Shown here piece after piece: positions 6,001-7,207 of a DNA stretch of 7,207 nt. Every line of letters starts with the position of its first letter. Position 1 is the first letter of the stretch. The position numbers are program-made. The stretch is from a virus (taxonomy: Duplodnaviria > Heunggongvirae > Uroviricota > Caudoviricetes). Where the stretch lies: the IMG/VR virus record IMGVR_UViG_2675903559_000012. The stretch is one strand, 5' to 3'.

Positions 6001-7207
6001 GCCAGCCATTCCACGCGCGCTTTAATGGCGTTTATCTGGCGGCGCATGTTGCCAGTAATCAGGCGCATACGGCGGTAGGTAGGGTCGTTAAGCTGTGCTG
6101 GATCTTCTCCAGCCATGCGCATGATGGTTTTTGTTGGATCGATTTCGTGCTTTGGCTTCATGTAGCCAGGTTTGATTGTGCTGGTTTCGTACCCTTTATC
6201 GCGCTGAACCTGGCTACCCACCATAGGCGAACAAAACGCCGACATGGTGACTTCTTCAATGTCCAGGGTATCCAGCATGATGTTTTGGGTGCTGAATGTC
6301 GCCACGTTCGGGAAAAACAGCGTGGTAAACAGCGGACTGAATTTAAATTCCGCAATATCCCCGCGATTCAGGTACGCAAAAAGCTGGTTAGTGTTAAGTG
6401 CCATTGCTTTTACTGTCATTATTCACCCCCATAATTTTTATGCATCCCAAGCGCCGCAAGTAAATAAGAGCGCACAAGTGAACCTATCGACGGCTCCGGC
6501 GTCATCAGCGGATCCAGTCCAGCTGCCACGCCAGCCTCATAGTTTTTTTTGTGGCGCTGCTTGAGCACCTCCACGATTTCGGGGCTTATGTACACCGAAA
6601 CACCGCCTTTTTTCTCTTCAGCCATAGTAAGAAATTCCTCTTTGACTTAAAAAATCATAACTGGATGTTCATCCAGATCTGATTATAATCATGATTGCAT
6701 TTTATGCAATGATGTTGAGTTGTGTTGCAAATTATGAAATGATGATCCCGATCATGTGTGTCAGTGCACCAAAAAAAACCTCATATGCAAAAGCCCGATA
6801 AGATGCCTCCTGTACTTATCGGGCTTTTTTTGGGTACAAAAAAGCCGGATTACTCCGGCTGTTGATTAGCTGCCTGGGTAATTACGCCATATTTCATCGC
6901 TTACACCATCTATACTCATTTCAGCATAAGTGCGATCGACTGCCTTTCTCAGGTCTCCGAAGTTATCCGGCGGCTCCGGTGGCCTCTGTGCCTTCCTGGA
7001 ACATTCCAGCCGTCGCATCGTAACCTGATGCCGTTCCTTGTCTGTCTCCACCAGCTGCATGACTTCACCCCATCGCGCCGCCGCCCTCCGGTAAAATCCT
7101 TTCGCCTCGAGTTCCTCCGCTATGCGGTCATGTATCATCGCCTGACTCTCCGGTTTTTACGTTGATGGTTGTTACCTGTTCCGCTTCGGCAATCTCCCGT
7201 TCTGTCA

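What the first reader, a model, noticed from the sequence alone, without database searches (positions are those of the whole stretch)
6626..7138. PerC/Pch-like activator directly upstream of the capsid operon, with a palindrome-rich promoter region
PerC-family proteins are known as activators of virulence regulons in EPEC and EHEC. Here one is encoded with its own terminator immediately upstream of a promoter-like region (TTGCAT-16-TATAAT on the minus strand) that is embedded in palindromes and drives the 68-aa/capsid operon. It may be the late-gene activator of the element, and if it behaves like Pch proteins it could also affect host gene expression.
Basis: partly seen in the sequence, partly recalled or inferred. 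Interest (0 to 1): 0.55.

Follow-up and report, generated by a model that had tools for sequence, protein, structure and literature searches.

The report
PchE-like PerC gene beside PICI capsid promoter
The stretch holds a known kind of small regulator gene (a PchE-type PerC homologue) sitting next to the promoter of the capsid genes of an E. coli phage satellite, but comparison with relatives indicates that the two are independent modules and that the promoter is more likely held off by repressors (probably the SOS repressor LexA) than switched on by PerC.

Summary
Observation confirmed. 6866-7138(-) encodes a 90-aa PerC-family protein (Pfam E=1.3e-43), 94% identical to PchE of O157 EDL933, followed by an intrinsic terminator, a second 14-bp hairpin, and TTGCAT-16-TATAAT inside palindromes, upstream of a 68-aa gene and a lambda-E-like capsid gene. 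The element is an EcCICFT073-type phage-inducible chromosomal island (PICI) inserted in tqsA; EcCICFT073 itself has the same layout.

The "late-gene activator" reading is not supported. The hairpin-to-ATG promoter module is conserved in 53 loci. Of 38 loci picked by operator sequence alone, 15 have no PerC upstream, as do Salmonella relatives. Near-identical PerC also sits upstream of an unrelated promoter (EDL933). The PerC model is TPR-like, with no DNA-binding fold. Published data show pchE is expressed basally and falls on SOS induction.

The promoter looks repression-controlled. It has a consensus -10 and two conserved TTGCA-N5-TGCAA inverted repeats centred near -57 and -27. A CTGGAT-N4-ATCCAG box at the start site scores like genuine LexA boxes (outer 12 bases identical to the ruvA box). 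The 68-aa first gene product is weakly ribbon-helix-helix-like.

This is a new member of a known kind; the LexA-box lead is the only modestly new item.

The parts
6866..7138 (-). pchE-type PerC-family gene (90 aa); it starts about 10 nt after the ssb gene in relatives
   Evidence: Pfam PF06069 E=1.3e-43. 94% identical to the EDL933 PerC (PchE) and 96% to L007. Same position after ssb in L001, L004, L005, L007 and L134.
6843..6860 (-). intrinsic terminator of the PerC cassette (7-bp stem, 5 G-C pairs, loop of 4, T-run)
   Evidence: Terminator scan and fold. The same GCCGGAGnAATCCGGC hairpin ends ssb, PerC or the 75-aa gene in relatives. Megablast homology breaks at about 6830/6838.
6783..6835 (.). 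second hairpin (14-bp perfect stem 6789-6802/6815-6828) with an A-run before and a T-rich run after; upstream boundary of the promoter module, probably an insulating, bidirectional-type terminator
   Evidence: Present at the same place with different stem sequences in L009/L010 and in Salmonella L137/L138.
6725..6739 (-). operator-like site 1, TTTCATAATTTGCAA (centre about -57)
   Evidence: Direct repeat D1. Nearly invariant in 33 distinct variants. It and site 2 are the only such sites in the PICI part of the complete elements, apart from one degenerate match upstream of the 75-aa gene in L001.
6695..6709 (-). operator-like site 2, TTGCATAAAATGCAA (centre about -27); its left half is the -35-like TTGCAT (6704-6709)
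   Evidence: It lies 30 bp from site 1 in all variants.
6679..6692 (-). -10 TATAAT (6682-6687) embedded in the palindrome ATGATTATAATCAG
   Evidence: Read. The TTA[T/A]AATC core is invariant across E. coli and Salmonella variants.
6659..6678 (-). LexA (SOS) box candidate ATCTGGATGAACATCCAGTT (core 6661-6676), covering the predicted start site (about 6675)
   Evidence: Scored with a weight matrix built from recalled E. coli LexA boxes: 16.9 bits. This is the best hit in the window (next 8.8); the training boxes score 12.8-26.5; the 95th percentile of shuffle maxima is 14.3. It is the top hit in each complete A-type PICI, and natural variants score 20-22.6. The outer 6+6 bases are identical to the ruvA box, which was verified in MG1655. 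Natural variants change the centre or turn CCAG into ACAG. The box is conserved in Salmonella.
6419..6625 (-). first gene of the operon, 68 aa (PHROG 3255, no known function); weakly ribbon-helix-helix-like; Shine-Dalgarno GAGG at 6637-6640
5364..6419 (-). major capsid protein homologue (lambda gpE type)
   Evidence: Pfam Phage_cap_E E=3.3e-50. 43% identical to lambda E.
5017..5352 (-). head decoration protein homologue (lambda gpD type)
   Evidence: Pfam HDPD E=2.4e-17. 36% identical to lambda D.
4591..5004 (-). 137-aa protein resembling the C-terminal (scaffold, Nu3-like) part of head maturation proteases
   Evidence: PHROG 1999, and PHROG 53 positions 494-567 at E=9e-9.
4517..4528 (-). lambda-type cosN cohesive-end sequence GGGCGGCGACCT with cosQ-like flank
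   Evidence: Exact match to the lambda left end and flanks.
3841..4383 (-). Nu1-like small terminase subunit (180 aa)
   Evidence: Pfam Phage_Nu1 E=2.3e-23. 35% identical to lambda Nu1. Not an Rpp homologue.
3548..3829 (-). 93-aa last gene of the element (PHROG 1561), shared with cf-PICIs

Best explanation
The region is the junction between two independently assorting modules of an EcCICFT073-type phage-inducible chromosomal island.

Module 1 is a pchE-type PerC cassette. It lies at the 3' end of the replication (early) gene block and is closed by its own terminator. It behaves like an accessory (moron-like) regulator that acts on host genes, probably through protein-protein contacts, because its fold is TPR/ANR-like rather than DNA-binding.

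Module 2 is a self-contained promoter module for the morphogenesis/packaging operon (68-aa protein, gpE-like capsid, gpD-like decoration, Nu3-like scaffold, cos, Nu1-like TerS, 93-aa protein). It begins with a second insulating hairpin and carries a sigma-70 promoter with a consensus -10 and a TTG-only -35.

This promoter is most likely kept off by repression rather than turned on by PerC. A LexA-type SOS box covers the start site, so SOS induction, which also induces helper prophages, would open the operon. This parallels the LexA control of SaPI operon I. Two TTGCA-N5-TGCAA operators 30 bp apart (about -57 and -27) are probably bound by a dimeric or tetrameric repressor. The best candidate is the operon's own first product, the ribbon-helix-helix-like 68-aa protein (negative autoregulation).

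Shown here: family membership, anatomy, conservation and modularity. Inferred: transcription start, LexA binding, the identity of the operator-binding protein, and the role of PerC.
For: PerC identity: (one homologue is named PchE by its source).

Modularity:
- Homology breakpoints lie between the two hairpins.
- The same promoter module occurs behind PerC (window, L007, EcCICFT073 L134), behind PerC plus a 75-aa gene (L001, L005), behind ssb with no PerC (L002, L003, L006, L009-L011, L133), in front of an HK97-type capsid gene (L008), and in Salmonella without PerC (L137, L138)..
- In 38 IMG/VR loci selected only by the two operator sites, 22 have PerC, 15 do not, and 1 is truncated.
- PerC at 94% identity precedes an unrelated promoter in EDL933.

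Repression logic:
- Consensus -10, with operators at -27 and +1.
- LexA weight-matrix scores and variant pattern.
- The leader hairpin is not thermodynamically unusual as RNA (z=-0.83), and natural CCAG-to-ACAG variants break the hairpin while moving towards the LexA consensus.
- The operators occur only at this promoter within the island, and not at the alpA promoter.

The 68-aa protein as an RHH candidate.

Literature:
- PchE has its own transcription starts 110-115 and 675-680 nt upstream, is expressed basally, and falls on SOS induction (PMC7369912, PMC6265319, PMC5931665).
- PerC variants are listed as PICI accessory genes (PMC6092414).
- SaPI operon I is LexA-controlled (Ubeda 2007, cited in PMC6092414).
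Against: - No expression or binding data exist for this promoter.
- The LexA weight matrix was built from boxes recalled from memory; only two (ruvA, ftsK) were verified in sequence.
- A subset of related promoters (B-type: L009, L010, L027, L032, L110, L121) and the cf-PICI L008 lack the LexA-like box, so LexA control is not universal.
- L008 keeps the operators but has no 68-aa gene downstream, which weakens the autoregulation idea.
- RHH assignment of the 68-aa protein is sub-threshold by every method.
- PerC is adjacent in about 60% of loci, and in both classic PICIs and cf-PICIs it always occupies the slot just before the head genes, which is where a late activator would be expected.
- In PA20 RNA-seq, pchE and the downstream cf-PICI head genes fall together on SOS induction. 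This is compatible with PchE-dependent expression, although at a different promoter type.
- Genomes with PerC-less islands may carry PerC elsewhere; this could not be checked.
Confidence: 0.55

Rival explanations
1. One reading: PerC is made from the early operon and then activates the capsid-operon promoter. It would do so either directly or, given its TPR/ANR-like fold, by removing a repressor (the operator-binding protein or H-NS) from the AT-rich promoter. PerC would then be the island's early-to-late switch.
For: - PerC sits immediately before the head-gene promoter in the window, in EcCICFT073, and in cf-PICIs.
- It is separated from that promoter by two terminators, so a trans-acting link would make regulatory sense.
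- The promoter region is 31-37% G+C.
- Several PHROG families related to the PerC N-terminus are annotated as transcriptional activators.
- pchE and the downstream head genes change together in PA20 RNA-seq.
Against: - 15 of 38 unbiased loci, plus Nissle 1917, clone D i2 and the Salmonella islands, keep the same promoter and operators without PerC in cis.
- PerC identity ranges from 73 to 97% with unchanged operators.
- The same PerC precedes a promoter without these palindromes in EDL933.
- No DNA-binding fold is predicted.
- The -10 is consensus and the operators overlap the core promoter, which is the geometry of repression.
- PchE is reported to be expressed without induction and to be reduced on SOS induction.
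Confidence: 0.17
2. The palindromes are targets of a helper-phage-encoded regulator (a late activator, antiterminator or repressor). Capsid-operon expression would then be timed by the helper rather than by any island or host protein.
For: - The island life cycle is helper-dependent, and alpA is switched on by helper phages (PMC6092414).
- The operators occur only once in the island, and no island regulator is shared by all loci except the core genes.
- L008 has the operators but no 68-aa gene.
Against: - There is no blastn similarity between the promoter module and 50,697 phage records.
- Lambda, a helper of EcCICFT073, has no TTGCA-N5-TGCAA site above chance.
- When the promoter hexamers are aligned, there is no similarity to the lambda pR' Q-binding element.
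- The leader hairpin is a weak terminator, is not unusually stable, and is absent in B-type promoters.
Confidence: 0.15
3. There is no separate regulated promoter. The capsid operon is read through from the AlpA-driven early operon, and the palindromes are incidental or act only as RNA structures.
For: - Gram-negative PICIs are transcribed unidirectionally (PMC6092414).
- The sigma-70 scan did not call the site.
Against: - Two strong conserved terminators lie between PerC and the operon.
- The -10 and both operators are nearly invariant from E. coli to Salmonella, while the flanks diverge.
- The module keeps its integrity behind different upstream genes.
Confidence: 0.05

Closest known systems
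PchE (ECs1588; group 3 PerC homologue) of E. coli O157:H7 Sp7 / OI-51 / CP-933C (= cf-PICI EcCIEDL933)
   Same: 90 aa, 94% identical. Same position directly after ssb and before the head genes, with the same type of terminator. Belongs to Pfam PerC.
   Different: In EDL933 a 75-aa gene and an unrelated promoter region follow, driving an HK97-type head module. The published phenotypes (curli repression, flagella activation, minimal effect on LEE1) were measured for that allele, not this one.
EcCICFT073, the prototype Gram-negative PICI (Fillol-Salom 2018, 2019)
   Same: Identical layout: ssb, PerC, terminator, second hairpin, sites 1 and 2, TATAAT, CTGGATGAACATCCAG, 68-aa gene, gpE-like capsid, gpD-like decoration, 137-aa gene, cos, 93-aa gene.
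   Different: EcCICFT073 carries RppA (144 aa) where this element carries a Nu1-like TerS of 180 aa. Its PerC is 82 aa with a different C-terminus. It is integrated next to phoQ, whereas this element is in tqsA.
EPEC PerC and EHEC PchA/B/C (activators of LEE1/ler)
   Same: Same Pfam family, with the conserved N-terminal helical region.
   Different: Only about 37-42% identity to plasmid-borne PerC-family genes. Group 3 homologues are reported not to activate LEE appreciably (PMC5931665, PMC6265319). An EcCIMP1 PerC-like protein even represses LEE1 (PMC11773190).
SaPI operon I (packaging operon of staphylococcal pathogenicity islands), repressed by LexA (Ubeda et al. 2007)
   Same: A satellite packaging/capsid operon with an SOS-box-like operator at its promoter, giving functional coupling to the SOS-induced helper.
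   Different: Unrelated sequences and hosts. LexA binding here is only predicted, and some relatives lack the box.
ANR family (Aar-type AraC negative regulators)
   Same: Small helical proteins. There is a weak similarity over residues 7-52, and a protein-protein mode of action is plausible.
   Different: The score of 18.4 bits is below the 32-bit cut-off, so this protein is not a member by the curated threshold.

Membership tests
PerC family (Pfam PF06069) | Profile match above the gathering score over the full domain | tested here: met
   147.6 bits against a 22.6 cut-off; residues 1-89 on profile positions 1-89 of 90.
PerC family (Pfam PF06069) | Small (about 90 aa) helical protein with the conserved N-terminal AEELEAKGFYRRAAxRW region | tested here: met
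   Alignment of 16 homologues. AF2 model with five helices, pLDDT 84.
PerC family (functional sense: activator of LEE1/ler) | Activates transcription of ler | not testable with these tools
   The literature on the 94%-identical PchE reports a minimal effect (less than 2-fold) on ler (PMC5931665).
Pch group 3 (PchE) | High identity to ECs1588/EDL933 PchE and the same position after ssb in a P4-integrase-type island | tested here: met
   94% identity to the L004 protein. Synteny. One homologue is named PchE by its source.
Gram-negative PICI, EcCICFT073 type | Rightward, unidirectional module order ssb - (PerC) - 68 aa - gpE-like - gpD-like - scaffold-like - cos - TerS/Rpp - 93 aa, with no tail or lysis genes | tested here: met
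   Same order as EcCICFT073.
Gram-negative PICI, EcCICFT073 type | int, alpA and pri/rep-ori at the left end; specific att site | tested here: inconclusive
   The left part lies beyond the window end (7207). Relatives with the identical promoter module (L007) have int, alpA and a primase. The right junction in tqsA is shared with a complete cf-PICI in O26.
Gram-negative PICI, EcCICFT073 type | Induction, replication and packaging by a helper phage | not testable with these tools
   Shown experimentally for EcCICFT073 only (PMC6092414).
LexA (SOS) box | 16-bp CTGT-N8-ACAG-type palindrome scoring in the range of known E. coli boxes | tested here: met
   16.9 bits in the window and 20-22.6 in natural variants, against 12.8-26.5 for 25 recalled boxes. 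Only about 1 in 200 shuffles of the whole window reaches this score. The outer 12 bases are identical to the verified ruvA box.
LexA (SOS) box | Overlaps the core promoter or start site of the regulated operon | tested here: met
   The core at 6661-6676 begins 5 nt after TATAAT (6682-6687).
LexA (SOS) box | Bound by LexA; operon derepressed on SOS induction | not testable with these tools
   No data. No paper in the library links LexA to E. coli PICI packaging genes.
Ribbon-helix-helix regulators (68-aa protein) | Profile match to an RHH family, or a clear beta-alpha-alpha fold match | tested here: inconclusive
ANR family (NF033650) | Score above the curated cut-off | tested here: not met
   18.4 bits against a cut-off of 32.
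Lambda-type Q-dependent late promoter | Q-binding element between -35 and -10, and a strong terminator in the leader | tested here: not met
   With the hexamers aligned to pR', the spacers are unrelated. The leader hairpin is weak (z=-0.83) and is not conserved in B-type promoters.

The most novel reading that the evidence does not exclude
PerC-family proteins may have their native role in phage satellites. The TPR/ANR-like PerC, made from the early operon, would act as an anti-repressor. It would strip the operator-bound repressor (the 68-aa RHH-like protein or H-NS) from the LexA-gated capsid promoter, making it the early-to-late switch of PerC-carrying PICIs. The virulence and adhesion effects of Pch/PerC in EHEC and EPEC would then be by-products of that activity. 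PerC-less islands would rely on LexA cleavage alone, or on PerC supplied by a co-resident island.
Probability: 0.12. Interest if true: 0.65.

Novelty: new member of a known kind. Interest (0 to 1): 0.3.

Why it matters
As found, it matters little. PerC homologues in E. coli PICIs (PchE in OI-51, and the copy in EcCICFT073) have been described since 2004-2018, and their effects on host adhesion and motility genes are published.

Two points have some value.

1. How Gram-negative PICIs time their capsid and packaging genes is not described in the papers I could search. The conserved promoter module defined here is a concrete, testable proposal. It consists of a double terminator, two TTGCA-N5-TGCAA operators, a consensus -10 and a ruvA-like SOS box. 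If true, it would be a convergent parallel to the LexA control of SaPI operon I.

2. The modular analysis argues that perC is a cassette that moves independently of the head-gene promoter. This bears on how virulence-modulating regulators spread among pathogenic and commensal E. coli.

Tried and rejected
- A scan of one genome per species with the capsid protein gave 33 pattern matches, none confirmed. I used the E. coli genome set, IMG/VR and exact-protein look-ups instead.
- Helper Q-antitermination mimic. A 12-nt resemblance (ATTGCATAAAAT against lambda ATTGAATAAAAT) is out of register once -35 and -10 are aligned. Rejected.
- Promoter module against all phage records by blastn: no match. 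Operator motif in lambda: none above chance.
- Leader hairpin as a transcription attenuator. It is not more stable than shuffles, natural variants break the pairing, and it is absent in B-type promoters. Rejected in favour of a DNA-level operator.
- AlpA as the operator-binding protein. There is no such site at the alpA promoter or elsewhere in complete islands. Considered unlikely.
- Sequence searches of PerC and the 68-aa protein against PDB chains gave nothing.
- By eye, I considered resemblances of the AT-rich palindromes to Fur boxes (13 of 19), CytR octamers, Fis, NtrC and sigma-54 elements. None was convincing or conserved across variants, so none was pursued.
- I tried to tie the 180-aa Nu1-like protein to Rpp. 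It has no PDB match, whereas the 146-aa protein of L002 matches RppC. This island therefore carries a TerS homologue, not an Rpp.
- I could not test whether genomes with PerC-less islands lack PerC altogether, because there is no whole-genome protein search of the E. coli set.

Full report
**What the window is.** Bases 1-2780 are E. coli chromosome: asr, ydgD, mdtIJ and the 5' end of tqsA. From about 2783 to the end, every gene is on the minus strand and belongs to a phage satellite. In transcription order the genes are:

| Coordinates (-) | Product | Evidence |
|---|---|---|
| 6866-7138 | 90-aa PerC-family protein | |
| 6419-6625 | 68-aa protein | |
| 5364-6419 | lambda gpE-like major capsid protein, 43% identical to lambda E | |
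| 5017-5352 | gpD-like decoration protein | |
| 4591-5004 | 137-aa protein resembling the Nu3/scaffold end of head proteases | |
| 4517-4528 | lambda-type cos | |
| 3841-4383 | Nu1-like small terminase | |
| 3548-3829 | 93-aa protein | |

Related DNA occurs in 1996 of 5426 complete E. coli genomes. Complete relatives carry int, alpA, icd-like, DUF4222 (RgdR), primase or helicase, and ssb genes to the left. The prototype Gram-negative PICI, EcCICFT073, has exactly the same layout around the finding.

**Checking the observation.**
- The PerC assignment is solid: Pfam PF06069, full length, E=1.3e-43.
- The protein is 94% identical to the PerC of O157 EDL933. That gene is pchE (ECs1588) of Sp7/OI-51 (PMC3378721 and the S2 table of PMC5931665).
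- Five nucleotides after the stop codon lies a terminator hairpin, 6860-6843. It is followed by a second, perfect 14-bp hairpin, 6789-6828. Together they are far more stable than shuffled sequence (z=-4.5).
- Both hairpins are kept through different sequences in divergent E. coli and Salmonella relatives.
- TTGCAT-16-TATAAT is at 6709-6704 and 6687-6682. The simple scanner does not list it because the -35 matches only 3 of 6. The -10 core is nevertheless nearly invariant in 33 distinct variants from 53 loci.
- The palindromes are real.

**Testing the PerC-to-promoter link.** Megablast homology to the region breaks between the two hairpins, at window position about 6830/6838. This shows that the PerC cassette and the promoter module recombine independently. 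The module from hairpin 2 to the ATG is found in these contexts:
- directly behind PerC: the window, L007 and EcCICFT073;
- behind PerC plus a 75-aa gene: L001 and L005;
- behind ssb with no PerC: L002, L003, clone D i2 (L006), L009-L011 and Nissle 1917 (L133);
- in front of an HK97-type capsid gene in a cf-PICI: L008;
- in two Salmonella islands with no PerC: L137 and L138.

For a less biased count, I scanned IMG/VR with a pattern for operator site 1 and kept loci that also had site 2. Of those 38 loci, 22 have PerC upstream, 15 have ssb directly upstream, and 1 is truncated. PerC identity among the 22 ranges from 73 to 97%, while the operators stay the same.

Conversely, EDL933 PchE is followed by a promoter region without any of these palindromes.

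Published work on PchE reports:
- its own transcription starts 110-115 and 675-680 nt upstream;
- steady basal expression;
- a 2-7 fold fall on SOS/prophage induction;
- repression of csgD/curli and activation of flagella;
- almost no effect on ler.

These come from PMC7369912, PMC6265319 and PMC5931665. That profile fits an accessory, lysogenic-conversion-type regulator better than a late-gene activator.

One observation points the other way. In the PA20 RNA-seq table, pchE and the downstream cf-PICI head genes fall together on SOS induction. That is a different promoter type, and read-through or a general effect would explain it equally well.

**What the promoter module looks like.** Conservation across E. 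coli and Salmonella picks out five elements.
1. The insulating hairpin.
2. Site 1, TTTCATAATTTGCAA.
3. Site 2, TTGCAnAAAATGCAA, exactly 30 bp downstream. Its left half is the -35-like hexamer.
4. TATAAT (TAAAAT in a subset), inside the palindrome ATGATTATAATCAT.
5. In the major (A-type) group and in Salmonella, CTGGAT-N4-ATCCAG starting 5 nt after the -10.

With a start site near 6675, the two TTGCA-N5-TGCAA sites are centred at about -57 and -27, and the last palindrome covers +1 to +16. A consensus -10, together with operators over the core promoter, is the geometry of repression, not activation.

**The LexA lead.** The last palindrome has the CTG-N10-CAG frame of an SOS box.
- I built a weight matrix from 25 E. 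coli LexA boxes recalled from memory. Two of them, ftsK and ruvA, were then verified at their expected places in real sequence.
- The matrix scores the window site at 16.9 bits. The next best site in the window scores 8.8, the training boxes score 12.8-26.5, and the 95th percentile of shuffle maxima is 14.3.
- The site is the single best hit in each complete A-type island, and natural variants score 20-22.6.
- Its outer 6+6 bases are identical to the ruvA box.
- Natural variation is confined to the four central bases and to CCAG-to-ACAG in three loci (L049, L058, L083). That change breaks the inverted repeat and any RNA hairpin, but moves towards the LexA consensus.
- As RNA, the hairpin is not unusually stable (z=-0.83).
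- B-type promoters and the cf-PICI L008 lack the box, so control by LexA, if real, is a feature of one lineage.
- No paper in the searchable library links LexA to E. coli PICI packaging genes. The known parallel is the LexA control of SaPI operon I.

**Who binds the TTGCA-N5-TGCAA sites?** This is unknown. The sites occur only at this promoter within the islands, and not at the alpA promoter. They are absent from lambda, and the module has no blastn similarity to any phage record.

The operon's first product is the best candidate, for four reasons:
- Its N-terminal GGVSVYISP is invariant while the rest of the protein diverges to about 55% identity.
- The model has an extended segment followed by two helices.
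- Three homologues give sub-threshold hits to the RHH families BrnA_antitoxin and RHH_1.

Each line is weak. L008 also keeps the sites without having this gene. I therefore rate this step at about 0.3.

**Comparison with what is known.** The gene is a PchE allele. The island is an EcCICFT073-type PICI that carries a Nu1-like TerS where EcCICFT073 has RppA. PerC variants in E. coli PICIs are already listed as accessory genes (PMC6092414). Another PICI PerC-like protein was shown to repress LEE1 (PMC11773190). The finding is thus a new member of a known kind.

**Verdict.** Interest is 0.3, carried mainly by the testable SOS-box and operator architecture of the PICI head-gene promoter.

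Noticed in passing
window 4517-4528 (- strand), flanks about 4500-4575: An exact lambda cosN cohesive-end sequence, GGGCGGCGACCT, with a cosQ-like ACGGGTCCTTTCCGG upstream and a cosB-side flank similar to lambda. It lies between the scaffold-like gene and the Nu1-like terS.
   Followed up: partly
window about 2783 (tqsA junction); L139: The island interrupts tqsA after codon 46. The same junction occurs in 185 complete genomes. In O26 RM10386 the same site holds a capsid-forming PICI (HK97-type head genes) that shares only the last 93-aa gene and the end region.
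   Followed up: partly
window 3096-3263: A dense cluster of imperfect palindromes (for example TACCCCAAATTTGGGTA, GACCCAAAATCTGGGT, TACCCAAACTACGGGTA) in the roughly 760-bp non-coding end of the island. Function unknown.
   Followed up: no
window 4566-4587 and 6843-6860; L001 13804, 16076, 16440: The same terminator hairpin, GCCGGAGnAATCCGGC + T-run, recurs after different genes and coincides with homology breakpoints. It may serve as the junction at which cassettes (PerC, the 75-aa gene) are exchanged.
   Followed up: partly
protein P0023 (79 aa, E. coli): A natural PerC::68-aa fusion protein. PerC residues 1-56 are joined at the shared PEP motif to the C-terminal 23 residues of the 68-aa protein. 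This implies a deletion that removes both terminators and the whole promoter.
   Followed up: no
L002, L006 and L008, between the ssb/PerC terminator and hairpin 2: A roughly 260-nt non-coding insert starting ACGGGTCCTCCTGG...GGGGCGGGAGGCGCGG. It looks like a second, divergent cos-like site in Rpp-carrying islands and in one cf-PICI.
   Followed up: no
L001 16421-16435; L004 3987-4001: A third operator-like sequence, TTGCACCAGTTGAAA, just after the PerC terminator and upstream of the 75-aa gene. About 0.2 such matches per locus are expected by chance.
   Followed up: no
window 109-125 (asr start): The A-run after the asr start codon has five A where O26 RM10386 has six. This puts a stop codon at the fifth codon (ATG AAA AAG TAT TAG). 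It is either a frameshifted asr or a sequencing error in a homopolymer.
   Followed up: partly
window 4591-5004: The 137-aa protein, annotated as hypothetical or head-tail connector in relatives, matches the C-terminal part of the head maturation protease PHROG 53, which is the Nu3/scaffold region. The island therefore encodes capsid, decoration and scaffold homologues but no portal or protease.
   Followed up: no
S2 table of PMC5931665 (Sakai ECs1586-ECs1593): In O157 strain PA20, pchE and the downstream cf-PICI head genes are detectably expressed without induction. All fall by log2 1.5-2.7 after 12 h of SOS-inducing antibiotic. This is the opposite of what is expected for an induced satellite.
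   Followed up: no
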